Positions 6,340-60,299 of a stretch of 64,000 bases of DNA are shown here, piece by piece. Source of the DNA: Eledone cirrhosa (lineage: Eukaryota); assembly GCA_964016885.1 (NCBI GenBank), contig OZ024743.1:121148001-121212000 (forward strand), given 5' to 3'. Below the pieces are notes generated by a model. The model saw only the letters and a list, made by a program, of their open reading frames with translations. It was not told the origin of the DNA and did no database searches. Each line of letters begins with the position of its first letter. The stretch's first letter is position 1. Both the position numbers and the translations under genes were made by a program.

Positions 6340-8200
6340 TTATTTACAAGCATAGTTATTGAAGTTAAGCAGATCAAAATGTAGGGTGTAGTTGCTTCTA
6401 TTTCTGGCTATTGAGTCATTCTCATTGTATTTGTCGTATAGTTGTTCGCTGAGTCTTAGTTTTCTACAGAATTCTGCAGTATCTTCCTTCATTTCGGGGT
6501 ACTTTGGTTGTTGGGGAGTTGGTGTAAATTTTAGACCTTTGGAGAGTATGATGATTTGGTCTGTTGTTAATACTTTAGAGGTCAAATTGACAATTTTTAT
6601 TGCATTTTGTGTCTCCTGTGTGTTTTGTGTTATCTTATAATCCTGTGTCTGTGTGCTGTGTCTAAAAAATGATTACGGAAGTTGTGATGGCTGTTGAAGT
6701 TTAGATGTCTCTTATAGTTGTATTGGCCCCTGTTGTTGTTGTAATATGGTGTGTAGCTGTGGTGGTTGTTGAGTTTAGGTTGTATCGTGTGATTGTATTG
6801 AGCCCTGCTGACGTTGTTGTAGGGTGTGTATATTTGATGGACGTGGTTATAGGGTGTGAAGTTGTGGTGGTTGTTGAAGTTGAGTTGTATCGTGTGGTTG
6901 TGTTGAGCACTGCTGTTGTTGTAGGGTGTGTAGACTTGGTGGTAGTTGTAGTAGGGTTGTCTTGTGTGGTCATATTGAGTCCTGTTGTTGCTGTTATATG
7001 GTGTGTAGCTATGGGGGTTGTAGTGGTTAGGGTGTCTCGTGTGGTTGTATTGTCTCCTGCTGGTGTTGTTGTAGTAGGATGTGGTTAGTGAGGGAGGATT
7101 GATTAGGGTTTCTTTATAGCTGGTGTGTGGTTGTGAGGCCCTGTGTGACATGTGTAGTAGTTGTGTATTTTTGGTTCTATGTTGGAAGTAATGATGGTTG
7201 TGGCTTTGTTGTGTGGGGATGTTAGGGGGGTTGTAAGTGTGGGGGGTTTTATGGTTTCTCCTGGTTGGAGAGAAGTTGTAGTGTCTATCTTGTAGCTGAT
7301 GTTTCTCTATTACTATATTTGTTGCTTGGGAGTCCGTGTGGTAGTTCTGTGGAGGATGTAGGAGGTAGGGGCGAGGTGATGCTTTCTTTTGTTGGTATGT
7401 GGGGAGGTATTGTTTTTTTGTTGTTGTTGGTTGTTGTGTGGTGTTTGGGGGTTGATTGAGTTTTCTTGTTATTATGGTTTTAATTAAGGGGTTCTTGGAT
7501 GTGTGTTCTTTTTGGAAAAGTGTTTCATAGTTAGAGAACCAGTTTTCGTTTATTTCCCAGCGTTAAAGTTATTTTAATTCTTCCTTATTACAGTCTTCTA
7601 ACCAAAATTTTGAAATATTTTCTAGGGTGGTGTCTTTGGTTATATTGATAATTGCTAGATTAATCTCATCGTCGATTGATTTGATCCTATCTTCATTTGC
7701 TTGGGCTCTCAATTTAAGGAGTTCAAATTCGGTTTTTATGTTATCAAGTGCCTTCTTTCCCTGAGGTGTCTTTGTGTCTCTGGTTCGTTTGGGATGGATT
7801 TAATTTGTAGTTTGCGGGGGATGATTAATGGGGATGAGTTAATCCATTTTTCATAGATCTCCGCTTTGTTATTGTTTTGTATCATCTTCCAAAAGGAGAA
7901 TTTCATGTTGTTAAGAGATGTGTACCATTGTGGTATTAAATTGTTTTTTATTTGGTAAGTTGTAAGTGTATTAGTGTCATGTGTATTTTCGTTCGTTTGA
8001 ATAGGGTTTGTGTTGTTATTCAGGTGTGTTTTTATTGTTTCACATAAGTTATTGATATTGTCGTTGATTTCATAGGATGTGTATTTGGTGATTGTTTCTT
8101 CACTTGTAGAGTTAAGTTTGTTGGTGAGTATTGACAAATTAGAGTTAATTTTTTGTAGTTCTTGGAGTATCTCTTGATTGATGCTAATGAGAGTGGAGTC
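6340..8200 (-). pseudogene. Disrupted N-terminal part of PLE ORF
   Basis: LSKGLKFTPTP...EFCRKLRL is the typical pre-RT motif of Penelope-like ORFs. Preceded by an N/H/Y-rich repeat; broken by stops and frameshifts. Confidence 0.75.
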
Positions 8201-8232
8201 TGAATGGACTCAACACAAACTTACAATTCACA

Positions 8233-9201
8233 ATGGATTACAGCCATGAACAACTCCCTATCCTTGACATCCTCATCAAGAAAACAAGCAACAAAGTAGA
8301 ATCAGACATATACTACAAACCCACAGACTCCAAACAATACCTTCCATTCAACTCGTACCACCCTAGACACACCAAAATGGCAATTCCTTATAACCTAGAG
8401 AGAGGGATCTGCACAATAGTTTCAGATAAATACACATGCTACACTCGACTAGAAGAATTAAAAAGCACACTTATCAGCAGAAACTACCCACCATCCCTAA
8501 TCACCAATGGATTCCAATGTGCCCTAAAACTAGACATCCAGGAACTCAGACACCCCAAACCCAGGAATGAACGGCAACAAAAAACTCTACCATACATCTC
8601 CACACACAACCCCCTCAACAATGAGGCATTCGACACCATCCTCCAGAATATTCCTTTACTAAAAAGAGACCCAAGAATGAACAAAATCCTCCAACCACAC
8701 AACATCATAAAGAGCAAAAGACAACCTAAATCCATAAAAAACATCCTCACACAAGCCAAAATCCAACAAACCCTCACAAAAGTAACAAAATGCGGAAGGC
8801 CCAACTGTGGCATATGCATAAATCTAATAGAAGGTTCAACATTCCATTTTAAACAAGGACAGCGTTTCACAGTTAAACACAACTTTACATGTGCATATGA
8901 AAACCTTATCTATGTTTTGACCTGCTCAGGTTGTCAAGAGCACTACATAGAACAGACAAAAAACAGCCTCCGTCAACGTGTGACCGTCCATAAATCACAA
9001 ATTAAAATACAGGAATACAGAAAGATTGCATTTAGTGAACATATCGCCAATTGTGCTCACAACCAACATCCAAACTTTAAAATTTCCCCCATTTACAAAT
9101 TCATAGACAATGCTACTTTCATCCAACGTACCAATAAGGAAACACATTACATTAATAAATTCCAACCCCTACTTAATGCTCTAAAAATCGGACCAATCTA
9201 A
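8233..9201 (+). CDS. 5'-truncated PLE ORF: RT thumb, Cys-rich linker, GIY-YIG endonuclease
   Basis: LPILDILI, DIYYKPTDSKQYLPFNSYHP, CGRPNCGIC linker and NLIYVLTCSGCQEHYIEQTKNSLRQRVTVH (GIY-YIG; the YIG glycine is replaced by E). Confidence 0.92.
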   Translation: MDYSHEQLPILDILIKKTSNKVESDIYYKPTDSKQYLPFNSYHPRHTKMAIPYNLERGICTIVSDKYTCYTRLEELKSTLISRNYPPSLITNGFQCALKLDIQELRHPKPRNERQQKTLPYISTHNPLNNEAFDTILQNIPLLKRDPRMNKILQPHNIIKSKRQPKSIKNILTQAKIQQTLTKVTKCGRPNCGICINLIEGSTFHFKQGQRFTVKHNFTCAYENLIYVLTCSGCQEHYIEQTKNSLRQRVTVHKSQIKIQEYRKIAFSEHIANCAHNQHPNFKISPIYKFIDNATFIQRTNKETHYINKFQPLLNALKIGPI

Positions 9202-13264: not shown

Positions 13265-15170
13265 TTCCCGTACAAAATACCCTACCTGGATACGATGCGG
13301 TTTGTTCATGTCCACATTGGCACATTCAGGAAATCCACTCGGTCCTATCAGTCAGTTGGAAACATCTGAACAGGTTTCGAGGCCTTTTCTCCCTACTCCC
13401 CTATCGGCTCGTCCCACTCAGTCCCAGCGTACATCTAAGAACCCGTTCCAATCGCCCACTAACATTAAAGGGTGAAACGTGCCTAGGAAGGTCTCCAGTC
13501 GCATGAAGAAATCAGGCCGTCCTGCAACTATCGAGTCATAAACATTCACTAGACTGAAAGCATAGCCTTCGCTGTTGGACACGTCCAGCACCACAGAAAT
13601 CGCCTTCTGGATCCAGGAGGATAGACCGTTTAACGAGATGCAGGCCTTTCCGAAACAACACAGTGACTCCGCCTCCAGATCTCGGACGGCTTGGAGTTAC
13701 GTACACCACGTAACCGCCGAAAATTGATGTGAAGGCTTGTGCCTCGGAAATTCTGGTCTCTCTGATAGTCACCAAATCTATGTTCACTGACCTGAAGTCG
13801 TTAAGCAGGTGATCCTGCTTCCATGACAAAACCCCAAGCCACGTCAATTCACGCCGCCTATTCTGAGTAAGGTAATCTTGAAAGAAGGGTAAGAAAAGGT
13901 GGAAAAGACCACTTGCCTCAGTCTTGTGGAGGAAGGACGGTTCCTCCTGTCTTTGTATATCCTTTTGAAGAGGGTTTCACGGAAATCTCCAATGTCATAG
14001 GGGAATTTTCCTTTTAAGAAAGTATGTCTTTTGTGAGATGCGTGTTATTTGTATGTGTATGGGTGGTGTGAATTGTTAAGGTGTTGTGTAGCTTTTATCT
14101 GTGATACTGGTGTTGTGTTTGATGTAGTGCAATAATTGTTTGTTGTTCGTGTTTAAAGCTGTGTACTGTGTTGCAGTTTTATCCTTTGTTGTGGTTGCGC
14201 ATGTGGATTTGTTTCTGTTTGGCTGGTTGTTGGTGTTTGTTGTGGTAATGGTGGTGGTGTTGGGGTTGATGATGGTGATGGTGTTGGTGTTTGTGGCGAT
14301 GGGGCTGGTGATGATAGTGTGGGAGGTGGTGGTGGCGTTGATGTCTTGACCTTTTTGTTTGTTTCGCCTTCATTCTTTGAAGGTGAAGGAAGAGAGTTCT
14401 ATATTTTTTCTGTTTTTGACGGTTTCCAATCCTCCTTGTCACAATCTGTCTCCAGCTGTGCGAGATCGAGGAGTTGCATGTCCTCCGCTTGTGTTGCTAA
14501 TGGCGTGGTGGATGGTGATGGTGCTCTTGCTACCGTTGCTGCTGCTGCGTGGGGAAGGCTGGAGATGTGGCCTTGAGTTTTTTGTGCCATTTCCTGGGGG
14601 CAGACAAACCTTAGGTGTATTTTATCCCCTCACACGTGACTCTTTCGCCTTCTATCCTCGATGGCCATGGTGAGGTGGGTTCCGTTCTAGAGGTTTATGA
14701 TATTCGCGATTTGTTCGACATTTTTCTGGTGTTTGGAGTCGAGTGATCGTTTCAGTTTTTTTGTTTGTTTGCAGCTCTCGCAAAAGAAACGCATGGCCTT
14801 GCGTTCCTGTTGCTGTACTTGTTGTTATTCTTATTGTTGCTGTTGTTCTTATTGTTGTTTATGTCATTGTTGTTGTCATTTGCGTTGTCGTCCTTGTCGG
14901 CGTTACTGTATTTTTATTGTTGTATTGTAGGTGGTGTGGGTGTTATTGATATTGTTATTGATATGTTGTTGTTAATGTTCTTGTGGTTGTGTGAGTTGGT
15001 TTTAATTTTTTTTTACTTCAGTTGTTGGTGTTGTTGTTGTGGTTGTGGTGGTGGTGGTGGTTTATCAACAAGTAACAAAATAATTTTTCCACAAGTAGCA
15101 ATTCAAAACAACATAAAAACAACAAACCTTCTAGAGACGATATCAATACGTCCCTCGAAAATGAGAAATA
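13265..15170 (-). mobile_element. L1/Tx1-like LINE 5' portion (ORF1 relic plus AP endonuclease)
   Basis: EN N-terminus QDHLLNDFRSVNIDLVTIRETRI..GGGVTVLF, LVGDWN remnant near 13450, degenerate zinc knuckle (HV*GDKIHLRFVCP) near 14600-14640. The 5' end abuts (TAA)n at 15170. Confidence 0.75.
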
Positions 15171-15176
15171 AATAAC

Positions 15177-15225
<49 letters not shown>

Positions 15226-15228
<3 letters not shown>

Positions 15229-15592
15229 GATCGTGTCTGATTGTGGATGTGGCCTGCCCTTTCGACACGAGAGTGCAAGAGAAGGAGAGGGAGAAAATTA
15301 ACCGATACCAGGACCTAAAGTGGGAGGTGAAAAGGATTTGGAACAGCCATGAAGTCAAAGTGATCCCGATTGTCATAGGCGCACTGGAGACTATCTCCAA
15401 AAGTTTCCAGGGATGGTTAAAGAAAATCGGCCCCTTCACGCTTTTTGGAACGCTTCAAAAGGCATGCTTGCTGGGAACAGCAAGAACCCTCCGATACGTC
15501 CTGAATATCTGAGGCTGCAGGTAGTGGCTTGATATTCATTCCAACGGACTTTCCAGTTAACCAACATCAATGACTGAGATTCAAGGAATAAC
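15226..15592 (+). mobile_element. R4/Dong LINE 3' fragment A
   Basis: DVACPFD..KINRYQDLKWE..LRYVLNI; the 3' UTR matches intact copy F; (TAA)n on both sides. Confidence 0.95.
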
Positions 15593-15618
15593 AACAATAA
15601 TAATAATAATAATAATAA

Positions 15619-15807
15619 TTGTTTCTACTTTTGGCACAAGGCCAGCAATAACCCAGTACATTACTGGTACTTTATTTTATCGACCCCGTAAAGATGAAAG
15701 GCAAAGTTAACCTCGGCGGGATTTGAACTCAGATCATAAAGGGACGTAACTCTATGCTTCAAAGCATGGTGTCCGACCCTCTACTGATACTGCCAATCCA
15801 CCGCCCT
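15619..15807 (-). mobile_element. Full-length tRNA-derived SINE (OR-like) within (TAA)n
   Basis: Reverse complement has TGGCAGTATCAG (A box), GAGTTCAAATCC (B box) and an (ATT)n tail. Confidence 0.85.
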
Positions 15808-15828
15808 TATAATAATAATAATAATAAT

Positions 15829-16232
15829 ACTGGAACACAATAGACCTGACCTGGTGGTTTTGGACAAAGAAAAAATATCGTGCCTGATTGTGGATGTGGC
15901 CTGCCCATTCGACGCGAGAGTGCAAGAGAAGGAGAGGGAGAAAATTAACCGATACCAGGACTTAAAGTGGGAGGTAAAAAGGATTTGGAACTGCCATGAA
16001 GTGAAAGTGGTCCCGATTGTCATAGGCTCACTAGGTACTATCTCAAAAAGTTTCCAGAGATGGTTAAAGAAAATTGGCCCCTTACCGCTTTTTGGAACTG
16101 TTCTAAAGGCATGCTTGCTGGGAACAGCAAGAAGCCTCCGATATGTCCTGAATATCTGAGGCTGCAGGTAGTGGCTTGATATTCATTTCAACAAACTTAC
16201 CAGTTAACTAACATCAATGACTGAGACTCAAA
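15829..16232 (+). mobile_element. R4/Dong LINE 3' fragment B
   Basis: HNRPDLVV..DVACP..KINRYQDL; (TAA)n on both sides. Confidence 0.95.
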
Positions 16233-16256
16233 TAATAATAATAATAATAATAATAA

Positions 16257-19200
16257 GTTTTTGATTTTTAACATATTTAAATCAATTGTGAAATAGCAAT
16301 TCTTAGTACAAATGATACATAAAGCACCGGACTCAACCATCAGAAAAATTCGGATCCATAATATTCTGTTATATCGCTCAAATATTTAATTTTGTATTAT
16401 ACATTTTATATTCAAAAAAGAAAATGGTTATAAATGGTAGAAAACCCACTCTGTCTACACTATATAGAACAGCCAAATAACAGCAATTTCACCAACACCA
16501 CAAACTAGATACACCACCTATCCCATCACCCCACTCTGTGTACACTAAATACAACAGCCAGATAACGGCAATTTCACCACCACCACCACCAATTCCAGCA
16601 TAATAATAATAATAATAATTACTATTATTATTGTCTCAAGTTTTTCACAAAATGTTTTATTCCAATATTAAGATATTATGTCAACACATATATTAAACAT
16701 ACGCGACTAACCGCATAGATTCACCGATCAAACAAACAAACTACAGTCTATTCAACAAAAATCAGTAACGACAACGCCATCACTATAGTCACCGCCGCCA
16801 CCACCCCATCCATCATTGCTACCACTATCCCATCACCGCCGCCACCACTCCTTCATTGCTACCACCTCTATTCTCCCATTAGCTTCTGTTAACTTACGAA
16901 AGGGGAAGGTGGCGGTATCACTAGACAATATTAATAAACAATATTAATATTTAATTTTGGGTCAGGAATGTTAGAGTCGAAAAGGAGGAAAATGGCAAAA
17001 TGACTAAATAGCTAGCTAAATAGCAAAAGCTAAGTGAACAGAGAAGATAATTTCACCACCATCACCACCACCACTACCACGCTAAAAACTCTGGTCAAGT
17101 TGCCTCAACTTCTATTTCTACTTCAACTTCAACGCCATCACTACAGTGCTACGATCACATCACCACCACCACTGTCTCATTATCGCTACCGCCGCTATTC
17201 TCTCCCACTACCTCCTGTTAAGTACTACTAGTACAGCACCACCAGCACCAGCACCACCGCTGCCTCATTATCACTACCGCCGCTATATTCTCCCACTACC
17301 TCCCGCTAACACATGCATCGTAGTGTCCCCACTAAAAGAGGAGGGCATCCAAATATATAAATGACCGAATTGATGAGCCGGTCAAAAAATCAAAAAACCA
17401 AAAATCAAAATCAAAGCAGCACAGCAACAACGAAAAACGTAAAGAAAAGAAAAATGAAGAGAAAAACAAACAGACAGACAGAGAAGGGAAGTGAAAAACT
17501 AAGTCAGCCAGTCAAACATTACATTACAATGAAACTTATACTTATTCTTTTGGGTTTTTTTTTTTCCTGTTTGTTTATTTATGTTCGTCTACAGCGTGAT
17601 AGTGCCACACAAAAATCACCGGTAGTGATGAAATCACCGGTGTTTATGTAACCATACATTCACCAATCCTCGATAAGAGTGTTTAAATGTCGAACCTAAA
17701 CAGTTCGAATAACGGTGAACTGGAGACAAGTGACAGACTCTCACCCAGCAGGTACTCCCTGGCTCAGCAGCAGGGACCTGGCTGTCAACCAAATACTGCT
17801 GGTGTCGGAGGAAGAAGAAGAAGGAAAGGGACCAGAACCAACTGGACGAAATAATTGAATAGAATTGTTATGCAATGTTACCTGACGAGTAACCCCAAGG
17901 AGAAAGGCTATTGGAAACGGATGCATAACATCTGGAACGAGATTAGTCTATTTAAATTAGATGAACAAAAATTGGCCGGGCAGGCTCGGGTAATAAGAAC
18001 TAATGGGTGGATAAGCGAGCTGGCACTGGAGGAACTGAGCAGAGAGATTAGGTTGGAAATGGAGAGTGGAGTATGCCAGGCAAACGAACCAGTGGGAAAT
18101 GAAGGTGAAGAGGGTGAGAGAACGGAGGAACCATCCGAAGCAGACAATGATCTGAATGCTGAAATAAATAATACCTGGAACAAAGATACGGCCCTTGAGG
18201 AGATGAATGCTAACGGGCTAGGAGAAGATTTGGTTGATATCCTAAACTTAGTGGTAGATGAATTGAACAATGATAGTGGGAAACCTATGAACCTAAGATT
18301 TGTAGACAGGAAAAAGTTAAAAGAAACAACAGCTAAGGTAAACAAAGTCATCCCATACCTTGAGGCGAGGAGCCTTCACCAGTGCAACAATATCCTCAAA
18401 GCAACAGCAAATGCGGTGAGGAAATTACTTGGTACAAAAGCGAGAGGAAACAGCAAACAAGAAAGATCAGAGCCTTGGTGGAAGAAACGACTGAGTGGTC
18501 AAATCAGGGAAATGAGAACTGACATTGGAAAGCTTGAGTCATAAATGAATGGGACACTAAAAAACGTAGACACTAAAAATAGACTGGAAATAAAGTACAA
18601 AACTAGGAGGAAAAAGCTAAATATTATCAGAGAGGAACTGAAGCAACGCATTGTAGCAAAGAATGCAAAAATTAGGCGATACGAGAGCAGAGTCAGTCAG
18701 TATAGACAGAACCGCATGTTTGACAACAACTAGAAGATGCTGTTTGGACAGCTTGAAGGGAAAGAAAGAGGCAACGACTTGATCCTTGGGGCGGAACAAA
18801 CTAAAACATTCTGGAGAGGAATATGGGAGCAGGATGTTAGACATAATGACCAGGCAGTGTGGATTGAGACAGTACAGAAGGAGATTAGTGAACAGGCACA
18901 CCAACAAACTGACTTGAGTATCACAGTTGAAACTCTTAACGGGCAGGCCAAAAAACTAACCAACTGGAAATCAAAGGCCCAGATGGTGTGCAGGGGTATT
19001 GGATTAAAAATATAACATCCCTCCACCCGAAACTGACAACCATGTTCAATGACTGCTTGATGTCAGGTGAGGTACCAGAGTGGTTGACAAAAGGTACCAC
19101 AGTTCTGGTAATGAAGGACCGAATCAAGGGTAATGATGTTACCAACTATAGACCTATTACATGTCTGTCCGTAACGTGGAAACTGTTGACCATCATTATG

Positions 19201-21178
19201 TCTGAGGAAATCTACCATCACCTCCACACAAACAACTTGTTACCGGACGAACAGAAAGGATGCCGAAAGAAGTCCCGTGGTACAAAGGACCAGTTACTTA
19301 TTGATAAGATGGTAATGAGGAATTGCAAGAGGAGACACACTGGTCTTGCCATGGGATGGATAGACTACAAACAGGCATTTGACATGGTGATCATTCTTGG
19401 ATCACCAAAAGCCTAGAGATCTTCAAGGTGGCAGATAACATCAGAGAGTTGTTGGGCAAAAGTATGAAGTCCTGGGAAACTGAGTTAACATCAGCTGGAG
19501 AATCCTTGGGAGGCGTGAAGATCAAGAGAGGTATCTTCCAGGGAGATAGTCTGTCCCCTCTGTTGTTTGTCCTTGCTCTGATACCCCTGACCATTATACT
19601 GCGAAAAGTGAGAGCAGGATACAAGTTGCGAAAGGGAGAGCTTACCATCAATCATCTCCTCTTCATGGACGATCTTAAGCTCATTGGGAAGAGCGAGAAG
19701 GAGTTGGATGTGCTTGTTGACACTGTCCGTATTTTCAGCAATGATATATGTATGCAATTTGGTATTAGTAAGTGTGGAGTCCTTGTGATGAAGAGGGGTA
19801 AATTGAGCAGAAGCAACGGAATACAGGTACCAACAGGTGAGATGATAAAGGAAATTGACACTGAAGAAGGATACAAGTATTTGGTTGTTCTGGAGGCTGA
19901 TGACATCAAGAACAGAAAAATGAAGGAATTTATAAAAACTGAACACATTCGGAGAGTAAGGAGCGTATTAAAGTCACATCTGAACATTAGGAATGCCACA
20001 AGTGCAGTAAATTCCCGAGCTTTGGCTATTATTAGGTACAGTGCGGTAATTCTGAGATGGAATGTTGCTGAACAAAAAGAAATGGATAGGAAGACTAGGA
20101 AATTATTGACTATCTACAACATGTTCCACAAGAGGAGTGATGTCGATAGACTCTACTTAAGGAGAACTGAAGGTGGAAGGGGTCTTATCAGCATAGAGGA
20201 CTGTATTCAGATGGAGAAAAACAACCTACACAAATACGTGACTGATAGTAAGGAGCCAATGCTCAGAACTGTACTGAAGGAGAGGACAATAGACCAGGGG
20301 ATGTCCAGGGAGAAATAACAACAAGGAGAAAGAGCAACCTTCAGGAAAAATCCCTTCATGGTACTTCTTTGAGAAAACTGAATTCAGAGATCCACAGACA
20401 TGGAACTGGTTGAAAAGAGGAGGCCTTAAAAAGGCTACGGGTGGAATGTTAATGGCTGCGCAAGAGCAGGCCCTCAAAAAGAAGTGGTTGAAACACCATA
20501 TTTACAAGGAGGAGGCTAGCCCACTGTGCAGGATCTGTGGAGAGAGAGAGGAGACTGTGGCTCACATTGTATCCGAGTGTAAACACCTAGCCCAGACTCA
20601 CTGTAAGGGCTGGAGACATGATGTGATGGGCAGGGTGATCCACTATCACCTAGGCAAAGTAAACAATTTACCACATTCTGAGAAGTGGTATGAGCATAAC
20701 CCAGAGTCGGTGATAGAAAACGATCAGGTAAAGGTGCTGTGTGATTTTAGGATACAGACGGACAAGAAACTGGAACACAATAGACCTGTCCTGGTGGTTT
20801 AGGACAAGGAAAATAGATCGTGCCTGATTGTGGATGTGGCCTGCCCATTCGACACGAGAGTGCAAGAGAAGGAGCGGGAGAAAATTAACCGATACCAGGA
20901 CTTAAAAGTGGGAGGTAAAAAGGATTTGGAACTGCCATGAAGTCAAAGTGGTCCCGATTGTCATAGGTGCAATAGGTACTATCACAAAAAGTTTCCAGGG
21001 ATGGTTAAAGAAAATTGGCCCCGCCCCGCTTTTTGGAACACTTCAAAAGGCATGCTTGTTGGGAACAGCAAGAACACTCCGATACGTCCTGAATATCTGA
21101 GGCTGCACCTAGTGCCTTGATATTCATTTCAACAAACTTTCCAGTTAAGTAACACCAATGACTGAGACTCAAAGAACA
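16257..21178 (+). mobile_element. R4/Dong LINE copy C, apparently full length, ORF disrupted
   Basis: Collinear with the intact 1130-aa ORF ([31 protein letters not shown]) with several stops and frameshifts; long 5' leader shared with copy D. Confidence 0.93.
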
Positions 21179-21188
21179 ATAATAATAA

Positions 21189-21368
21189 TTGTTTTTACTT
21201 TTGGCACAAGGCCTGCAAATTATCCAGTACATTACTGGTACTTTATTTTATCGACCCCGTAATGATGAAAGGCAAAGTCAACCTCGGCGGGATTTGAACT
21301 CAGACCGTAAAGGGACGTAACTACGCTGGAAAGCATGGCGTCCGACTCTCTACCGATACTGCCAATTC

Positions 21369-21369
<1 letters not shown>
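21189..21369 (-). mobile_element. tRNA-derived SINE (OR-like) within (TAA)n
   Basis: Same family as 15619-15807. Confidence 0.85.
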
Positions 21370-21406
<37 letters not shown>

Positions 21407-24400
21407 GTTTTTGATTTTTACTTATTTAAAACAACTGTGATAGAATAATTCTTATTACAAATGAAATATCAGATTACAGTTTTAACTCTCAGCAAGCGAC
21501 AACGCATCACATTACGGCATAAGGCCCCAATATTTAATATTTAATTTTGGATCAGAAATGTTATAGTCGAAAAGGAGAAAGATGGCTAAGTAGACAGACA
21601 GGCAAATAATTTCACCACCAACACCACCACCGCCACCATCACCACTACCACGCCAAAAACTCTAGTCAAGTTACCTCAACTTCTATTTCTACTTCAACTT
21701 CAACACCATCACTACATCATCACCACCACTGCCTCATTATCGCTACCGCCGCTATTCTCTCCCACTACTTCCTGCTAAGTACTACTAGCACATCACCACC
21801 ACCACCACTGCCTCATTATCGCTACCGCCGCTATTCTCTCCCACTACCTGCTGCTAAGACAGGCATCGTAGTATTTCCACTAATGAGGAAGGCATCAAAA
21901 GATATAAATAGACTGATTTGATGACCCGGTCAAAAAATCAAAAGATCAAAAATCAGAATCAAAACACCACAGCAACAATGAAAAACGTAAAGAAAAAAAA
22001 AAGAAAATCAAATCAAACAGACAGACAAGCAAAAAAACTAAGTCAGACATTCAAACATTACATTACAATGAAACTTATGCTTATTTTTTTTTTTTTTTAC
22101 CTATTTATTTGTTTGTTTATTTATGTTCGTCTACAGCGTGATAGTGCCACGCTAAAATCACCGGGGGTGACCAAATCACCGGTGGTTATGTAACCATACA
22201 TTCACCAATCCTCGATAAGAGTGTTTAATGTCGAACCTAAACAGTCCGAATAACGGTGAAGTGGAGACTGGAATGTCATGTGACAGACTGTCACCCAGCA
22301 GGTGCTCTCTGGTTCAGCAGCAGGGACCTGGCTGTCAACCAAATACTACTGGTGTCGGAGGAAGAAGAAGAAGGAAAGGGACCAGAACCAACTGGACGAA
22401 AGAATTGAATAGAACTGTTAGCAATGTTGCCTGAGAGTAACCCCAATGAAAAAGGCTATAGGAAACGGATGCATAACATATGGAACGAGATTGGTCTATT
22501 TAAATTAGATGAACAAAAATTGGCCGGGCAGGCTCGGGTAATAAGAACTAATGGGTGGATAAGCAAGCTGGAACTGGAGCAACTAAGCAGAGAGATTAGG
22601 TTGGAAATGGAGGGTGGAGTATGCCAGGCAAACGAGCCAGTGGGAAATGAAGGTGAAGAGGTTGAGAGAACGGAGGAACCATCCGAAGCAAACAATGATC
22701 TGAATGCTGAAATAAATAATACCTGGAACAAAGATACCGCCTATGAGGAGATGAATGCTGACGGGCTAGGACAAGATTTGGTTGATATCCTAAACTTAGT
22801 GGTAGGTGAATTGAACAATGATAGTTGGAAAGCTATGAACCTAAGATTTGTAGACAGGTAAACGTTAAAAGAAACAACAGCTAAGGTAAACAAAGTCATC
22901 TCATACCTTGAGGCGAGGAGCCTTCGCCAGTGCAACAATATCATCAAAGCAACAGCAAATGCGGTGAGGAAATTACTTGGCATAAAAGCGAGAGGAAACA
23001 ACAAACAAAAAAGATCAGAACCTTGGTGGAAGAAACGACTGAAAGGTCAAATCAGGGAAATGAGAAATGACATTGGAAAGCTTGAGTCATAAATGAATGG
23101 GACACTAAAAAACATAGACACTAAAAATAGACTGGAAATAAAGTACAAAACTAGGAGGAAAAAGCTAAATATTATCAGAGAGGAACTGAAGCAACGCATT
23201 GTAGCAAAGAGTGCAAAAATTAGGCGATACGAGACAGTACAACAGGAGATTAGTGAACAGACACACCAACAAACTGATTTGAGTATCACAGTTGAAACTC
23301 TAAGGGGCAGGCCAACAATCTAACCAACTGGAAATCCCCAGGCCTGGCTGGTGTGCAGAGGTATTGGATTAAAAATATAACATCCCTCCACCCGAAACTG
23401 ACAACCATGTTCAATGACTGCTTGATGTCAGGTGAGGTACCAGAGTGGTTGACAAAAGGTACCACAGTTCTGGTATTGAAAGACCGAATCAAGGGTAATG
23501 ATGTTACCAACTATAGACCTATCACATGTCTGTCCGTAATGTGGAAACTGTTGACAAGCATTGTGTCTGAGGAAATCTTCCATCACCTCCACACAGACAA
23601 CTTGTTACGGACGAACAGAAAGGATACCGAAAGAAGTCCCGTGGTACAAAGGACCAGTTACTTATTGATAAGATGGTAATGAGGAATTGCAAGAGGAGAC
23701 ACACTGGTCTTGCCATGGGATGGATAGACTACAAAAAGGCATTTGACATGGTGCCTCATTCTTGGATCACCAAAAGCCTAGAGATCTTCAAGGTGGCAGA
23801 TAAAATCAGACAGTTGTTTAGTAAAAGTATGATGTCCTGGAAAACAGAGTTAACATCGGGCGGAGAATCCTTGGGAGGCGTGAGGATCAAGAGAGGTATC
23901 TTCCAGGGAGATAGTTTGTCCCCTCTGTTATTTGTCCTTGCCCTGATCCCCGTGACCATTATGCTGCGAAAAGTGAGAGCAGGATACAAGTTGGGAAAAG
24001 GAGAGCTTAACATCAATCATCTCCTCTTCATGGACGATCTTAAGGTCTTCGGGAAGAGTGAGAGGGAGTTGGATGTGCTTGTTGACACTGTCCGTATTTT
24101 TAGCAATGATATATGTATGCAATTTGGTATTAGTAAGTGTGGAGTCCTTGTGATGAAGAGGGGTAAATTGAGCAGAAGCAACGGAATCCAGGTACCAACA
24201 GGTGAGATGATAAAGGAAATTGACACTGAAAAGGGATACAAATATGTAGGTGTTCTGGAGGCTGATGACATCAAGAACAAAAAAATGAAGGAACTGATAA
24301 GATCTGAATACATTCGCAGAGTAAGGAGCGTACTAAAGTCACATCTGAACAGTAGGAATGCCATAAGTGCAGTAAATTCCCGAGCTGTGTCTATTATTAG

Positions 24401-25517
24401 GTGCAGTACAGAAATTCTGATGGAATGGTGCTGAACAAAAAGAAATGGATAGGAAGACTAGAAAGCTATTGACTATCTACAACATATTCCACAAAAGGAG
24501 TGATATCGATAGACTCTACTTAAGGAGATCTGAAGGTGGAAGGGGTCTTATCAGCATAGAGGACTGTATTCAGATGGAGAAAAACAACCTACACAAAAAC
24601 GTGACTGAGAGTAGGGAACCAATGCTCAGAATTGTACTGAAGGAGAGGACAATAGACCAGGGGATGTCCAAGGAGGAAATAACAACGAGAAGACAGAGCA
24701 ACCTTCATGAAAAATCCCTTCATAGTGCCTTCTTTGAGAAAACTGAATTTAGAGATCCACAGACATGGAACTGGTTGAAAAGAGGAGACCTTAAAAAGGC
24801 TACAGAAAGAATGCTAATGGCTGCGCAAGAGCAGGCCCTCATAACGAAGTGGCTGAAACACCATATTTACAAGGAGGAGGCTAGCCCACTGTGCAGGATC
24901 TGTGGAGAGAGAGAGGAGACTGGGGCTCACATTGTATCCGCGTGTAAACACCTAGCCTAGACTAACTATAAAGGCTGGAGACATGATGTGATGGGCAGGG
25001 TGGTCTACTGACACCTATGCAAAGTAAACAATTTACTACATTCTACGAAATGGTTTGAGCATAAGCCTGAGTCGGTGGTGGAAACGATCAGGGGATTTTA
25101 GGATACAGACGGGCAATAAACTGGAACACAATAGACCTGACCTGGTGGTTTTGGATAAGGGATAAAGATCGTGCCTGATTGTGGATGTAGCCTGCCCATT
25201 CGACACGAGAGTGCAAGAGAAGGAGAGGGAGAAAATTAACCGATACCAGGACATAAAGTGGGAGGTAAAGAGGATTTGGAACTGCCATGAAGTCAAAGTG
25301 GTCCCGATTGACATAGGCGCACTAGGTGCTATCTCAAAGAGTTTCCAGGGATGGTTAAAGAAAATTGGTCCCGCCCCGCTTTTTGTAACACTTCAAAAGG
25401 CATGCATGCTGGGAACAGCAAGAAACCTCCGATACGTCCTGAATATCTGAGGCTGCAGGTAGTGGCTTGATATTCATTTCAACAAACTTTCCAGTTAAAT
25501 AACATCATCTCAAAGAA
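21407..25517 (+). mobile_element. R4/Dong LINE copy D, ORF disrupted, with 183-nt internal deletion
   Basis: Collinear with copies C and F; deletion at ~23233 between GAGA microhomologies; (TAA)n on both sides. Confidence 0.93.
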
Positions 25518-25533
25518 CAATAATAATAATAAT

Positions 25534-27095
25534 GCTTTCTTTATTAACCACAAGGGTTTACATAAAGTAGACATTAAGGACAGTACAGGACAATACAGGA
25601 CGGTACAAATGGGCATTTCTGCGTGTAAAAAACAAAATCAGAGGATGTAATAAAAAATAACAATGAAACATTCCCCAATAGGGGGGAGACTTCCGAGGGA
25701 CATTTGTGGAGAAAGCCCATTAAAATGCCACAGTGACCCTGACCACCAGGGCAAGTGCCCTCTCACTGTTTTCCACCTTTAATTTACAGACACATACTCA
25801 GAGTAGACCCATTCACTCGGGCCATTCTTGCTTCTCTCACCCATCTTTCAACAAAATGCTGGAAAGAGAGCACTTCCCTCTCTACCCTGATTTTCCTTTT
25901 CAAATGAAATTTGAAAAAGTTAATCAGGGCATCACCGAAGAGGTAAGTGCTCGTCTTCAGCCCTTTCAAACGTGTCCACCATACTATCTCTTTCGCCATG
26001 GCCACCAGACAGATAAAAACTTCCTGCGCTTCCCGGCTAAAGGAAGAGGGCGGGGCAATCCTCACGATAGACTCAGCTGATAGTCGGATCCGTTCTACAC
26101 GCGACAGCAGGTGTTCGTCATAAACCCACAAGTCAGCAATGCTCGGACACTGGACGAGTGCATGCAGGACGGTGTCGTCGCCCTCCTCGCATCTCGAACA
26201 TGCCCGGCTGACGGCACCTCCATGCCTGTAGAGTTTAACCCGAACTGGCAAAGCTCCTTGGTAGCACTGCCAGGCCAGGGATTTCTGGAAGTTGTCCATA
26301 GGCCCCGGCCCGAAAGTTCTTCCAAAGATATTGGCTAGTTGATTTTCGTCGATGCCTAGAGTTTCCCCAACTACGTCGTCGCTCTTCCCTTCCACTAATT
26401 CTCTATAGAACGCCAAGGTGGAGTTTCCGCCGATCACATTGCCCGTTTGGTCGAGGGCTGTTAGCGCCTGAAGAAATTCCAGTCTCCAAGCGCTCCCTCT
26501 CGGTCTTCGCTTGACCCAGGACTGCAGCTCCGTCAAGGAGATGAGCTGGGGAAAGACGTGTCTAGCAAACGGCGACCACACCTGATCACCGTCGAGGAAA
26601 AGGTGGAAATGTCGTAGCCTGAGTGCGTGTCTGCGTCACGGCATGCCCACCCCTCCATTTAGCGGGTGTTGACAGCAGATGGACCGCGTGACCATCGGAG
26701 CGCGTCCCTTCCACAAAAAGCGAAAGTGCAAACGCTCCAGCGCAGTCAGGCGAGGCTTAGGACAAGGCACGACGGTCAGGCGGTAGTAGATGACGGACGC
26801 GATGTACGCGTTAGTCACCTCCGCTCGACTTTTCAGGGATAGCTTCCTCTCCGCCTATTTCTGGGTGAGAGAAGCCACCCTGCTCGTCACCTCGTGCCAG
26901 TTTTTGTCCGTCTGGAGATCCGGACCGAACCAGACCCCTAACGATTTAACTGGTCCGTCCGTCCAGCGCCCGACGACACCGTTGGACGGCATGGACCTGC
27001 CTCTCCAGGTGCCGAGCTGCAGGCCCACCGACCTTTCCTGGTTGATCATTGCTCCTGTCACCGCTTCGTATTCTCTTAGTGTAGTACCGATCGCC
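25534..27095 (-). mobile_element. L1/Tx1-like LINE 3' portion (RT C-terminus plus Zn-binding domain), (ATT)n tail
   Basis: VKSLGVWFG, FLWKGR..P..GGVGMP and CSRCEEGDDTVLHALVQC (zf-RVT); AATAAA directly before the tail. Confidence 0.85.
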
Positions 27096-27997
27096 TGATG
27101 TGTTTGGCTAATAATAATGTTTTCTGTTTCATCTAAATAATATTGTATTAGATTTTGAATTCCTTTGGGTTTTCTAGCAGATTTGTTAAACAAATGTATT
27201 GAGATGCCTTGGACATCACCTGACATTAAAAAGAAAGTAAACAGAGTTCATAAGTGATGGGAAAATGTAATTGAAGTTGGTTCCACAATGCAAATAACTG
27301 TGAAAATCTTTTGCCGTCGATAAATAAGTGTATATGATGTCACGGGTTGGAGGCAACGCATATTAAATAAGCGCTGGAGTTGTTGGTACAACAGAGTGGT
27401 TTGTCTATAATATAATAGACTAGTCGCGTAATAAACACAGCAGAATTTATATGTTTGCGTTGTGTAGCTACGTGTAGTGGCTTTGCTGAATATTCATTAA
27501 AGATGATCTTACGGCCTGTTTGCCATCAGTAAACTCAAAGACAAGATCAAGTTTAGCAGTAAGCAATCAAAGAAATTCTCTTGTATCCTTATACCAGATT
27601 TAAATTCAGGTAAGGGAAGATTTCTATCATAATAAGATCTCTATATTTGTGTATGTTTATAAATATGCGTGCTTCAGGCACACCATATCTGTGTGTTCCC
27701 ATGTATGAGACCAGAAATTACGACTTCGAAGTTAATATAATTAAAGTGTTTGCATATCTAAATTATTTAGATTATGCTTTACACTGGTCTCATAAAGAAA
27801 GTGTTCACTACTTAGATATTGAATTTAGGTACCAGTGAGATGAAATTACAACAACAACAAGATTTACCCAGACAATATTCATAACATTTTACACCTGCTT
27901 GTCAGAAATGATTTGCTTATCATTCATAATACAAGCATTCTTTATTTCGTCAATTGCATAACATTTTAAAAATCCATTATTTTCATTTATGGAATTA

Positions 27998-31261: not shown

Positions 31262-31346
31262 TAAAATTAAAATAACAGATTAAAGTTTAAGCAAAGAATC
31301 ACTTGGATTTTAGTCTTCAAATTTATTATTATTACTATATATATAT

Positions 31347-31385
<39 letters not shown>

Positions 31386-37445: not shown

Positions 37446-37740
37446 CCCAAGGCTCTGATACCATCAACACCATAAACACAGAGAGCTGGCATATCTAAAA
37501 ACGGACTAGCTGCTTGATGAGGTCATAGCCATTCAATGGTTATCATCGAAATATATATACCAGTAAATAAAGAATTATGAGTTCATGCAATTGACTTATG
37601 TTTCGTCACTATATATATAAATATTTAATAAATATTTGCTCTACGGTCCTTATATATTTGATATATATTTATCCTTATCGAGCCCTCTTTGGATTTTAGT
37701 CTTCAAATTTATTATTATTACTATATATATATATATATAT

Positions 37741-37830
37741 ATAGGAAAAGAGTCAGAACTCCGACGGCTAGAAGCCACCAGTCTGGTGGCTTAGTTAGGA
37801 TCTAGCTGTCGGAACGTCGGCAGCTCATCA
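37741..37830 (+). mobile_element. Divergent palindromic short element, copy 5
   Basis: TAGGAAAAGAGTCAGAACTCCGACGGCTAG start after (TA)n, with an internal hairpin AAGCCACCAG-T-CTGGTGGCTT. Confidence 0.55.
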
Positions 37831-43484: not shown

Positions 43485-45768
43485 TGCGTCCGTTCTTCCA
43501 CGCTAACATGGGTTAGACGTGTTGTCCTGTTGTGGGCAGTGTCCAGTCGGCTGAACATGCCTTGCTCATACGGGAGCTGATTCTGTCTTGATTTCTACAG
43601 CTGGATGCCCTTCCTAACACCAACCTCTGCTAGGAGGGAAGCAGAGGATAGAAAATTCAAGCATGTTTTGCAACGTGAGGACCAGAAACAGTTCAAGATT
43701 GCGAGGCAGTGTGTCAGAGAGAATTGTGATGTCATTTGAGAGAAGTGTATCCAGAATGATAAAGGTGAGCTTGCCCTCACAAGTGCTGAGAAGAAAGATG
43801 CGTGGAAGAGCCATTATGATAGATTACTAAATGAGGAGAATACATGGGAAGAAGAGACCCTACCTTTTAACAGACTTCATTGTTTGCATTTGGGGCAGAG
43901 AATGGAGTTCCTACCTACACCTTTCCTACATACTGAGCAAGGCCATTTCCCTGAGGGGATTTGGGTTCTGTTTTCTCGTCTACTTACAAGGACCTTAGTC
44001 TTTGTCAGGTTGACGTTGAGACCCTTTCTTTATAGTCCCTGCTTCCAAGTTTGGAATTTCTTCTCTAGTTCTACCATAGATTCAGCTATAAGTGCGAGAT
44101 CATCTGCATACAGGAGTTCCAATGGGCATCCGGTCTTAAACTCCTCCGTTATTGCCTGCAGGACTATGATGAACAGGTGAGGGCTAACAACAGAGCCCTG
44201 GTGGACACCGACCTGTACGCTAAATTCCTCGCTATACTCATTGCTAATCCTAACTTTGCTGACTGCTCCCCTATACATGGCTTGTACAGCTTTCACAAGC
44301 CATTCATCTACTCCTAGTTTTCTAAGAGCCCACCAGATTATAGCACGGGGAACTCTATTAAAGGCTTTCTCGAGATCGACGAATGCCAGGTAGAGTGGCT
44401 TCCGTTTAGCTAGGTACTTTTCCTGTAACTGCCTCACAAGGAAGAGGGCATCAGTGGTGCCTCTTTCAGGCACAAACCCAAATTGCATCTCAACTAGTTT
44501 CACCCGGTTCCTAATCATGTTACTTTCATGACCTTGTCCATCAGCTTTATACCTCTATAGTTTCCTCTATCTAGTGCATCGCCTTTAACTTTCTAACAGT
44601 TGACAATGATGCTACTGCACCAATCTTTTGGTATGACACCTTCTACTATTACCTGGTTAACAATACGTGTGGTTATAGTGTGACCCACAGACCCAGATGC
44701 CTTCAGCATCTCGGCAGCTATACCCGATGGACCGGTTACCTTCCCCGTCTTCATATCTTTGATTGCCTTACTTACTACGCTGCTGCTGACTTGTCCTGCT
44801 GGCCCCTCTATAGGGTCTACTTGGGGTAGGGTCTCTTCTTCCCATACATTCTCCTCATTTAGTAATCTATCATAATGGCTCTTCCACGCATCTTTCTTCT
44901 CAGCACTTGTGAGGGCAAGCTCACCTTTATCATTCTGGATACACTTCTCTCCAATGACATCATAATTCTCTCTGACACACTGCCTCGCAATCTTGAACAC
45001 CTGTTTCTGGTCCTCACGTTGCAAAACATGCTTGAATTTTCTATCCTCTGCTTCCCTCCTAGCTAAGTATACTTGTCGCCTAGCTTCTCTCTTGTCTCTA
45101 TGTAATGTACCCTGCTTCCCCGTTCTTCCATTCTTTCCATGCCTATTGGCCTTAACTGCCTCTCTACCTTATTGTTCCACCACCAAGTCACTCTCCTCCT
45201 GCCTATGGTCTTACTCCAGCCACAGATTTCATCCGTCGCCTTTAGTAAGTTATTTTTTAGGAACTCCCAGTGCTCTTCTACATTGAATGTCTGTATCTGT
45301 TCTTATTTACTGTCATAGGCGTTGAGTAAAATATCTTTAAATCTGTTACTGGCTGAGGGGTCTTTCAGCTTCCATATCTTTCTTCTCCAGTTTGGCTTCT
45401 GTTTCCAGGTTTGTCTAGTTCTGACCGTGAGGCCACTGACAACTAAGCTATGTTGGAAAGTACATTCCCCACTAGGGAAGGCTTTTGTGTTTACGACCGT
45501 CCATCTGTCACGTCTTCTGGTGAGGATAAAATCTATCTGACTAGAATGCTCCCCTGATCTATAAGTGATCAGATGGCTGTCGGGTTTTTTGAAGTTTGTG
45601 TTACATATTGACATGTCATTGGCGTCTCAGAATTCTAGGAGCCTGAGGCCTTCTTCATTTTTTGTGCCAACCCCATGGCCTCCATGGACTCTATAGAAGC
45701 CGCCATGGTGTTTACCTACGTGTCCGTTAAAATCTCCTGCAATGATTAGGAAGTCATTGTCGTTTGTT
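43485..45768 (-). mobile_element. RTE LINE (EN and RT fragments) with an internal inverted duplicated segment
   Basis: GDFNGHVG, SQIDFILTR, QFGFVPERGTTDA, AFVDLEKAF, GVHQGSVVSP, LLYADDL. 43630-43864 is an inverted copy of 44826-45063; 3' UTR at 43485-43625. Confidence 0.9.
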
Positions 45769-59441: not shown

Positions 59442-60264
59442 TATGTAGCCTTTTTAAGGTCTCCTCTTTTCAACCAGTTCCATGTCTGTGGATCTCTGAA
59501 TTCAGTTTTCTCAAAGAAGATACTATGAAAGGATTTTTCTACATGAAGGCTGCTCTTTCTCCTTGTTGTTATTTCCTCCTTGGACATCCCTTGGTCTATT
59601 GTCCTCTCCTTCAGTACAATTCTGAGCATTGGCTCCTTACTATCAGTCACGTATTTGTGTAGGTTGTTTTTCTCCATCTGAACACAGTCCTCTATGCTGA
59701 TAAGACCCCTTCCACCTTCAGTTCGCCTTAAGTAGAGTCTATCGACATCACTCCTCTTGTGGAACATGTTGTAGATAGTCAATAGCTTCCTAGTCTTCCT
59801 ATCCATTTCATTTTGTTCAGCAACATTCCATTTCAGAATTCCCGCACTGTACCTAATAATAGACACAGCTCGGGAATTTACTGCACTTATGGAATTCCTA
59901 CTGTTTAGATGTGACTTTAATACGCTCCTTACTCTCCGAATGTATTCAGATCTTATCAATTCATTCATATTTTTGTTCTTGATGTCATCAGCCTCCTTCT
60001 TCAGTGTCAATTTCCTTTATCATCTCACCTGTTGGTACCTGGATTCCGTTGCTTCTGCTCAATTTAATCCTCTTTATCACAAGGACTCCACACTTACTAA
60101 TACCAAATTGCATACGTATATCATTGCTCAAAATACGGACAGTGTCAACAAGCACATTCAACTCCTTCTCACTCTTCCCGAAGAGCTTAAGATCGTCCAT
60201 GAAGAGGAGGTAATTGATGGTAAGCTCTCCCTTTCCCAACTTGTATCCTGCTCTCACTTTTCAC

Positions 60265-60266
<2 letters not shown>
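59442..60266 (-). mobile_element. R4/Dong LINE internal fragment E
   Basis: [23 protein letters not shown]; begins directly after the (TAA)n tail of copy F and is truncated at KKAT. Confidence 0.92.
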
Positions 60267-60297
<31 letters not shown>

Positions 60298-60299
60298 GT

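What the first reader, a model, noticed from the sequence alone, without database searches (positions are those of the whole stretch)
13265..27095. A single (TAA)n microsatellite holds a 14 kb strand-partitioned array of eight retroelements
Seen: L1(-), DongA(+), SINE(-), DongB(+), DongC(+), SINE(-), DongD(+), L1(-), with only (TAA)n at each of the seven junctions (15170, 15595, 15810, 16232, 21178, 21370, 25518). All Dong copies read into (AAT)n; all L1 and SINE copies read into (ATT)n. Known: Dong (R4 clade) elements target TAA repeats, and many Tx1 elements are target-specific. Inference: two different endonuclease types (REL and APE) use opposite strands of the same repeat, and each insertion regenerates target for both, giving a self-perpetuating landing pad.
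Basis: partly seen in the sequence, partly recalled or inferred. Interest (0 to 1): 0.75.

Follow-up and report, generated by a model that had tools for sequence, protein, structure and literature searches.

The report
Opposite-facing jumping genes share ATT repeats
Eight mobile elements are stacked here at short TAA/ATT repeats, two unrelated kinds always facing opposite ways, a pattern that recurs across this genome (likely an octopod's), likely because each kind cuts its own strand of the repeat; the short third element prefers only a five-letter motif and likely borrows the enzymes of one of them.

Summary
The array is real. All eight elements, their strands and the seven AAT junctions check out, and there is an eighth junction at 27109-27117. 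The left L1 is an older subfamily cut off at its 3' end without any repeat, so 'one original microsatellite' is not shown. In other loci of the genome, Dong-like (REL) copies read AAT (3' ends 66 of 72) and L1/Tx1-like (APE) copies read ATT (3' ends 34 of 39, full-length 5' ends 22 of 25), against a 0.2% background. The SINE is not microsatellite-specific: 8 of 66 random copies have (ATT)3 upstream; 33 of 66 have an 11-20 bp duplication, mostly starting at ATTAT. It shares a CUUGU-loop 3' hairpin with the Tx1-like families, with compensatory changes. A sister clade sits in (ATCT)n. Dong on TAA and opposite-strand sharing (TRAS/SART) are known; I found no paper on an ATT-targeting Tx1 or this SINE link. 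Earlier notes of this scan report the same pattern on eight other windows of this genome.

The parts
13265..15170 (-). Old L1/Tx1-like LINE, 'type A' subfamily: 5' end, decayed ORF1 and most of the APE domain; 3' part lost at about 13265
   Evidence: translation; EN alignment; best long match 79%; type A 5' ends elsewhere follow ATTAT in 10 of 10
15171..15225 (.). (AAT)16 tract, junction 1
15226..15595 (+). DongA, 5'-truncated and young (REL C-terminus and 3' UTR)
   Evidence: 98% to the copy at 60277-60671; best match in loci 98.9%
15596..15619 (.). (AAT)8, junction 2
15620..15809 (-). SINE1, about 190 bp, with A/B-box-like head and 3' CUUGU hairpin
   Evidence: sequence; family hits; hairpin
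15810..15828 (.). (TAA)6, junction 3
15829..16230 (+). DongB, 5'-truncated
   Evidence: best match 96%
16231..16254 (.). (AAT)8, junction 4
16255..21177 (+). DongC, near full length (lacks about 50 nt of the 5' end), long-5'-UTR subfamily, ORF broken by stops and frameshifts
   Evidence: 5' UTR continuous with the ORF in other copies; RVT_1 and zf-RVT
21178..21189 (.). (AAT)4, junction 5
21190..21368 (-). SINE2, lacking about 10 nt at the 5' end
21369..21404 (.). (AAT)12, junction 6
21405..25518 (+). DongD, near full length, short-5'-UTR subfamily, internal deletion of about 180 bp near 23234, ORF broken
   Evidence: self-alignment; RVT_1
25519..25533 (.). (AAT)5, junction 7
25534..27108 (-). 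Young L1/Tx1-like LINE, 5'-truncated (end of RT, zinc knuckle, 3' UTR with CUUGU hairpin)
27109..27117 (.).
   Evidence: the flank beyond it has no match in the loci held

Best explanation
This is a stack of eight retroelements joined by AAT/ATT repeats, likely built one insertion at a time because two unrelated LINE families target the same repeat from opposite strands. Shown: Dong-like copies (single ORF, RT, C-terminal REL) have (AAT)n on their sense strand at both ends; L1/Tx1-like copies (ORF1, APE-RT) have (ATT)n on their sense strand at both ends, truncated copies included; the copies in the stack differ in age. Inferred from target-primed reverse transcription: the Dong REL nicks and primes on the ATT strand, the Tx1 APE on the AAT strand, which fixes polarity. 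An insertion splits a tract and leaves repeat on both sides, so every junction stays a target. The SINE needs only ATTAT, makes 11-20 bp duplications, and is likely copied by the Tx1-like enzyme through a shared 3' hairpin; its ATT ends would both use and seed tracts. The old left L1 is likely the founder.
For: Flank counts, window copies and one duplicate locus left out: young Tx1-like 3' ends ATT 34 of 39, AAT 0 of 39; truncated 5' junctions ATT 15 of 24, AAT 0 of 24; full-length 5' ends ATT 8 of 10 (type A), 11 of 12 (B), 3 of 3 (C). Dong 3' ends AAT 66 of 72 (ATT 2); truncated 5' AAT 37 of 51 (ATT 0); full-length 17 of 20. Background 0.21%. In 970 kb taken at round coordinates, 12 of 22 tracts of 8 or more units touch a Dong or Tx1 end, and Dong-Tx1 and SINE-Dong chains occur. 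Domains: APE + RT + zf-RVT in an intact 1204-codon frame in L130, nearest solved structure human L1 ORF2p; intact 1141-codon Dong frame at 60384-63809, nearest solved structure R2. SINE: duplication of 10 bp or more in 33 of 66, 30 of them not pure ATT, against 0.8 in mismatched pairs. Hairpin: stem of 3 bp or more in 168 of 195 SINE ends, 44 of 49 ATT-type and 17 of 17 ATCT-type Tx1 ends; in a 10-row alignment 3 of 4 pairs change on both sides, and 0 of 500 shuffles reach the covariation score. Age spread 79% to 99%.
Against: 9 of 24 truncated Tx1 and 14 of 51 truncated Dong 5' junctions lack three repeat units (some look like later insertions or deletions, but not all were resolved). Duplication by the LINEs is not shown: interrupted duplications of 10 bp or more in 3 of 26 Tx1 (mismatched mean 2.2) and 7 of 51 Dong (mean 3.6, max 10). 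No empty allele was seen. The SINE's looser target (8 of 66 in tracts) differs from the young Tx1's, which fits a shared enzyme less well. The hairpin is only 3-4 bp, and the patterns fixed the loop in advance. Most LINE loci were the best matches of a search, not random. At least one other repeat family ends in ATT.
Confidence: 0.8

Rival explanations
1. Tail-only model: (ATT)n and (AAT)n are just the elements' own 3' tails; only Dong targets the repeat, and L1 and SINE supply tails that Dong then enters.
For: All three families have the repeat or motif at the 3' end; for the SINE, tracts are indeed not needed.
Against: A tail cannot explain the 5' side: ATT lies upstream of 22 of 25 full-length and 15 of 24 truncated Tx1 5' ends against 0.21% background, and the sister clade has ATCT on both sides.
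Confidence: 0.07
2. RNA-annealing model: the endonucleases are only loosely AT-specific, and polarity and targeting come from pairing of the element's 3' repeat (AUU or AAU) with the nicked strand.
For: The SINE uses only ATTAT; one truncated Tx1 (L014) sits in a degenerate AT-rich site with a 19-bp duplication. Annealing is proposed for SART1 (PMC7265360, passages), and L1-EN reads structure more than sequence (PMC1950540, passages).
Against: The EN hairpin loop differs between the ATT and ATCT clades (only three ATCT rows), and EN swaps change the target in SART/TRAS (PMC7265360, passages). Not exclusive with the best explanation.
Confidence: 0.3
3. The SINE is moved by another LINE (RTE, CR1 or L2 type) that also ends in ATT, and the hairpin likeness is convergence.
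For: An unidentified repeat ending in (ATT)n is present (8 hits); the SINE's target is looser than the young Tx1's.
Against: Of 110 SINE-like 3' ends in the random sample, 107 belong to SINEs, and of the 3 others one is a Tx1 end and two are unassigned. The other ATT-ending repeat shows no CTTGT loop at its end.
Confidence: 0.3
4. Assembly artefact or segmental duplication.
For: The region is highly repetitive, and no listed contig spans it.
Against: The four Dong copies are 87-92% identical to each other with different truncation points; the flanks have no match in the loci held; the same junction types recur at many loci.
Confidence: 0.03

Closest known systems
Dong (R4 clade; Bombyx mori, Anopheles, Biomphalaria, Darwinula)
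   Same: Single ORF with RT and C-terminal REL; (TAA)n target, stated for most insects, mollusks and cnidarians (PMC7998251, passages; PMC3812793, passages). Dong-R4 and L1-Tx1 are listed as recently active in Octopus vulgaris (PMC13282606, passages).
   Different: Nothing essential. Here there are at least two Dong lineages, and they share tracts with an APE family.
Microsatellite-specific Tx1 families: Kibi (TC)n, Koshi (TTC)n, crocodilian (TTCC)n/(TTTC)n families
   Same: APE-RT LINE of the L1/Tx1 group with a microsatellite at both ends (PMC4494074, passages).
   Different: The targets here are (ATT)n and, in a sister clade, (ATCT)n; neither appeared in searches. No tree with the named families could be built.
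TRAS1 and SART1 on silkworm (TTAGG)n
   Same: Two target-specific LINE families insert into one repeat in opposite directions (PMC7265360, passages).
   Different: Those are telomeric and both APE-type (R1 clade; recalled). Here the repeat is interstitial and the two enzymes are unrelated (REL and APE).
SINEU / Tx1-Mar (crocodilians) and 'stringent' SINE-LINE pairs with a 3' stem-loop
   Same: A SINE likely moved by a Tx1 LINE (PMC4494074); shared 3' hairpins with compensatory changes mark stringent pairs (PMC3747384, passages).
   Different: SINEU has snRNA heads and is linked by a shared target. This SINE has an A/B-box-like head, is linked by a 3' hairpin, and is far more abundant (187 hits in 970 kb).

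Membership tests
Dong / R4 clade | Single ORF with RT, CCHC knuckle and C-terminal restriction-like endonuclease | tested here: met
   1141-codon frame at 60384-63809 with RVT_1 and zf-RVT; CCHC, RHD, PD..D and K..RY motifs read in the translation (motif names recalled); nearest solved structure R2
Dong / R4 clade | Insertion in (TAA)n, read as AAT on the sense strand | tested here: met
   3' 66 of 72; truncated 5' 37 of 51; full-length 5' 17 of 20
Dong / R4 clade | N-terminal Myb/SANT-like domain; RT tree placement with named Dong/R4 | not tested
   feature from PMC7998251; no named Dong sequence was held
Tx1 clade | Two ORFs; ORF2 with N-terminal APE, RT and C-terminal zinc knuckle (L1 group) | tested here: met
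   L130: Exo_endo_phos, RVT_1, zf-RVT; best solved match L1 ORF2p, E 2e-52
Tx1 clade | ORF1 with CCHC zinc knuckle (recalled as a Tx1 trait) | tested here: met
   CX2CX4HX4C motif in the L130 ORF1 frame; Pfam gave no knuckle hit
Tx1 clade | Target preference (more than 20% of flanks, criterion of PMC4494074) | tested here: met
Tx1 clade | RT phylogeny groups with Xenopus Tx1, Kibi, Koshi, Keno rather than other L1 lineages | not testable with these tools
   the homolog searches listed no named Tx1 reference; the closest named hit is an Argonauta hians protein at 74%
tRNA-derived SINE | tRNA-related head with A and B boxes | tested here: inconclusive
   A/B-box-like words seen in the sequence (consensus recalled); ARAGORN and Rfam found no tRNA match
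tRNA-derived SINE | Target-site duplications and high copy number | tested here: met
Stringent SINE-LINE pair (SINE with Tx1-like LINE) | Shared 3' end with conserved stem-loop | tested here: met
   short (about 30 nt, 3-4 bp stem)
Stringent SINE-LINE pair (SINE with Tx1-like LINE) | Mobilisation in trans by the LINE's ORF2 | not testable with these tools
   needs a cell assay
TRAS/SART telomeric system | Two families in opposite orientation on one repeat | tested here: met
TRAS/SART telomeric system | Telomeric repeat target, both families APE-type | tested here: not met
   the window lies at 121 Mb of a 379-Mb contig; one family is REL-type

The most novel reading that the evidence does not exclude
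An octopod Tx1-like lineage has radiated over microsatellite targets, (ATT)n and (ATCT)n, with matching changes in the endonuclease hairpin loop. It recognises its RNA by a conserved CUUGU-loop hairpin, drives a SINE of roughly half a million copies through that hairpin, and with Dong on the other strand turns ATT tracts into self-feeding, strand-partitioned landing pads throughout the genome.
Probability: 0.45. Interest if true: 0.65.

Novelty: new variant of a known kind. Interest (0 to 1): 0.45.

Why it matters
It gives a natural pair of sister APE retrotransposons with different simple targets (ATT and ATCT), which makes the old question of what sets APE specificity (endonuclease loop or RNA annealing) directly testable by domain swaps. 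It names a candidate autonomous partner for a very abundant SINE of this genome. It also explains why long (ATT)n tracts here are often occupied by LINEs (12 of 22 tracts of 8 or more units), which matters for microsatellite markers, assembly and repeat annotation. The array itself is an ordinary product of these habits.

Tried and rejected
1. The genome search with the SINE as query returned nothing (very common words are skipped), so SINE statistics come from 97 stretches of 10 kb taken at round coordinates. 3. Target duplication by the LINEs: not above mismatched-pair controls. 4. (TAA)6 at 16601 as a further junction, and 16255-17500 and 21405-22000 as separate elements: rejected, they are Dong 5' UTR. 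5. One L1 split by the array: rejected, both copies face the same way with the 3' piece upstream of the 5' piece on their strand, and they belong to different subfamilies. 6. Possible (AGT)n and (GTT)n targets upstream of two Tx1 5' ends (L040, L054): single cases, not followed. 7. ARAGORN and Rfam gave nothing useful. 8. In one search the Tx1 reference was empty through a scripting slip, so its neighbour labels omit Tx1; redo this.
Full report
Setting. The window is G000:C4:121148001-121212000 in a 3.0-Gb genome. The closest named homolog of the L1-like protein is from Argonauta hians at 74% identity, so the host is likely an octopod; the SINE also resembles octopus SINEs (recalled, not tested).

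1. Observation. Runs of AAT lie at all seven stated junctions, and the elements between them have the stated order and strands. Refinements: the right L1 extends to about 27108 and its truncated 5' end abuts (TAA)3 at 27109-27117, an eighth junction. The left L1 keeps its 5' end next to the first tract but is cut inside the APE domain at about 13265 with no repeat; contigs from sequencing runs cross that point. DongC and DongD are near full length: their upstream 0.6-1.3 kb is 5' UTR, continuous with the ORF in most of the 45 loci fetched with those UTR pieces, and full-length copies start about 50 nt further upstream. Best identities to other copies held are 79% for the left L1, 95-97% for the SINEs, DongB-D and the right L1, and 99% for DongA, so the stack grew over a long time.

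2. What the families are. An intact Dong frame of 1141 codons lies at 60384-63809 of the window (RVT_1, zf-RVT; REL motifs read from the translation; nearest solved structure R2). An intact L1-like copy in L130 has an ORF1 frame with a CCHC motif and an ORF2 frame with APE, RT and zf-RVT, nearest to human L1 ORF2p. I call it Tx1-like; placement with named Tx1 families could not be tested.

3. Genome-wide test. Counted were three or more perfect units within 25 nt, leaving out the loci of the window's own copies and one duplicate locus. Young Tx1-like copies: 3' ends ATT 34 of 39; truncated 5' junctions ATT 15 of 24; AAT 0 in both; full-length 5' ends ATT in 8 of 10, 11 of 12 and 3 of 3 for three 5' types (AAT in 1 of 25). 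Dong: 3' ends AAT 66 of 72 (ATT 2); truncated 5' AAT 37 of 51 (ATT 0); full-length 17 of 20 (ATT 1). Background is 0.21%. Most of these loci were the top matches of searches, so young copies are favoured. In 970 kb taken at round coordinates, the seven Dong copies with a 3' end had AAT on both sides or AAT-like short runs, and the four young Tx1 copies had ATT at every end present. Of 67 tracts of four or more units, 18 touch a LINE end, including 12 of 22 tracts of eight or more units. Mixed chains occur in L096, L111 and L204. The polarity rule therefore holds, and the array is a long example of a common pattern.

4. The SINE. Of 66 near-complete copies in the random sample, only 8 have three ATT units upstream and 7 downstream, none has AAT, and 54 are followed by ATTAT. 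33 of 66 have a duplication of 11-20 bp, 28 of the 33 starting at ATTAT, AATTAT or TTAT; mismatched pairs give 0.8. So the SINE has an oriented five-letter preference that long tracts satisfy, not tract specificity. Its 3' end aligns with the Tx1-like 3' ends: a CUUGU loop closed by GGC/GCC in the SINE, by ACC/GGU in the young LINE and by GCC/GGC in older and ATCT-type LINEs. In the 10-row alignment, 3 of 4 pairs change on both sides; 0 of 500 shuffles reach the covariation score, and slid registers score lower (relatedness is not controlled and I chose the rows). A shared 3' stem-loop is the usual mark of a SINE and its LINE partner (PMC3747384). I put Tx1-driven mobilisation at about 0.65.

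5. A sister target. Divergent relatives with the same 3' hairpin end in (ATCT)n, 17 ends, and four fragments in the random sample have CTAT repeats upstream. Three such copies form a clade (FastTree support 1.0) among 34 rows, with weakly supported placement among the ATT-type subfamilies. The segment that aligns with the L1-EN hairpin loop (alignment; loop role from PMC1950540) reads NRIGSS in four ATT-type rows and NRSGTS, NRNGSS or NRSGQS in three ATCT-type rows. This is a candidate determinant only; that paper found loop grafts not simply modular.

6. Mechanism. Shown: fixed and opposite orientation, repeat at both ends, differing ages, SINE duplications, shared hairpin. Inferred: in target-primed reverse transcription the nicked strand primes the cDNA, so Dong would nick the ATT strand and the Tx1-like APE the AAT strand. 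Insertion inside a tract leaves repeat on both sides, so targets persist and may multiply. Net addition of repeat by the LINEs is not shown: interrupted duplications were not above controls (3 of 26 against 2.2; 7 of 51 against 3.6), although one copy (L014) has a clear 19-bp duplication. No empty allele was found. The oldest element, the left L1, is the likely founder.

7. Known and new. Dong on (TAA)n is known, also in mollusks (PMC7998251, PMC3812793). Tx1 families on microsatellites and a Tx1-moved SINE are known (PMC4494074). Opposite use of one repeat is known from TRAS and SART (PMC7265360). Dong-R4 and L1-Tx1 are listed in octopus repeat surveys, whose passages I saw name no target (PMC13282606, PMC8967140, PMC9115989). 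Searches found no ATT- or ATCT-targeting Tx1, no REL/APE pair on one microsatellite and no Tx1 partner for an octopus SINE. Subscription papers, Repbase and supplements were not seen and may hold these. What I saw of each paper: passages around search terms for PMC13282606, PMC4494074, PMC8967140, PMC7265360, PMC4758252, PMC3812793, PMC3531059, PMC3747384, PMC1950540, PMC7998251 and PMC9115989; Kojima and Fujiwara 2004, Xiong and Eickbush 1993 and Ohshima and Okada 1994 only as citations.

8. Earlier notes. Eight unreviewed notes of this scan describe the same pattern elsewhere in this genome. I had reached the polarity, ATCT and shared-3'-end readings before that call; the hairpin lead came from one note, and I then tested it.

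Verdict. Real, and well explained by known targeting biology. The new parts are the ATT and ATCT targets of a Tx1-like lineage, the REL/APE sharing and the likely SINE partner. New variant of a known kind; interest 0.45.

Noticed in passing
window 59444-64000 and L091: A young Dong on the minus strand with an intact 1141-codon frame (60384-63809), (ATT)10 at 60268-60297, followed by a second Dong fragment; its 5' end follows a long (AAT)n just beyond the window.
   Followed up: partly
L102, L127, L130, L181, L182, L216, L217, L227: A sister Tx1-like clade in (ATCT)n repeats with the same 3' hairpin and a different EN loop.
   Followed up: partly
L020, L024, L088, L090, L096, L142, L149, L159, L175, L209: A second, divergent Dong-like lineage with its own 3' UTR, also ending in (TAA)n in Dong orientation; 10 hits.
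   Followed up: partly
L017, L118, L125, L200, L215, L226: An unidentified repeat ending in a different small hairpin and short (ATT)n; 8 hits.
   Followed up: no
window 31303-31359 and 37689-37743; 11 hits in the random sample: A repeat with a fixed (TTA)4 followed by (TA)n; it accounts for many short ATT tracts that are unrelated to the array.
   Followed up: no
window 6630-9201: A 336-codon frame (8191-9201, +) whose C-terminal part looks like the GIY-YIG end of a Penelope-like element (recalled; Pfam gave no hit), next to inverted pieces on the minus strand.
   Followed up: no
window 44030-45168 (-): A further RT fragment (RVT_1, E 7e-21), not part of the array.
   Followed up: no
L040 and L054: Single Tx1-like 5' ends that follow (AGT)n and (GTT)n runs: possible further targets or decayed ATT tracts.
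   Followed up: no
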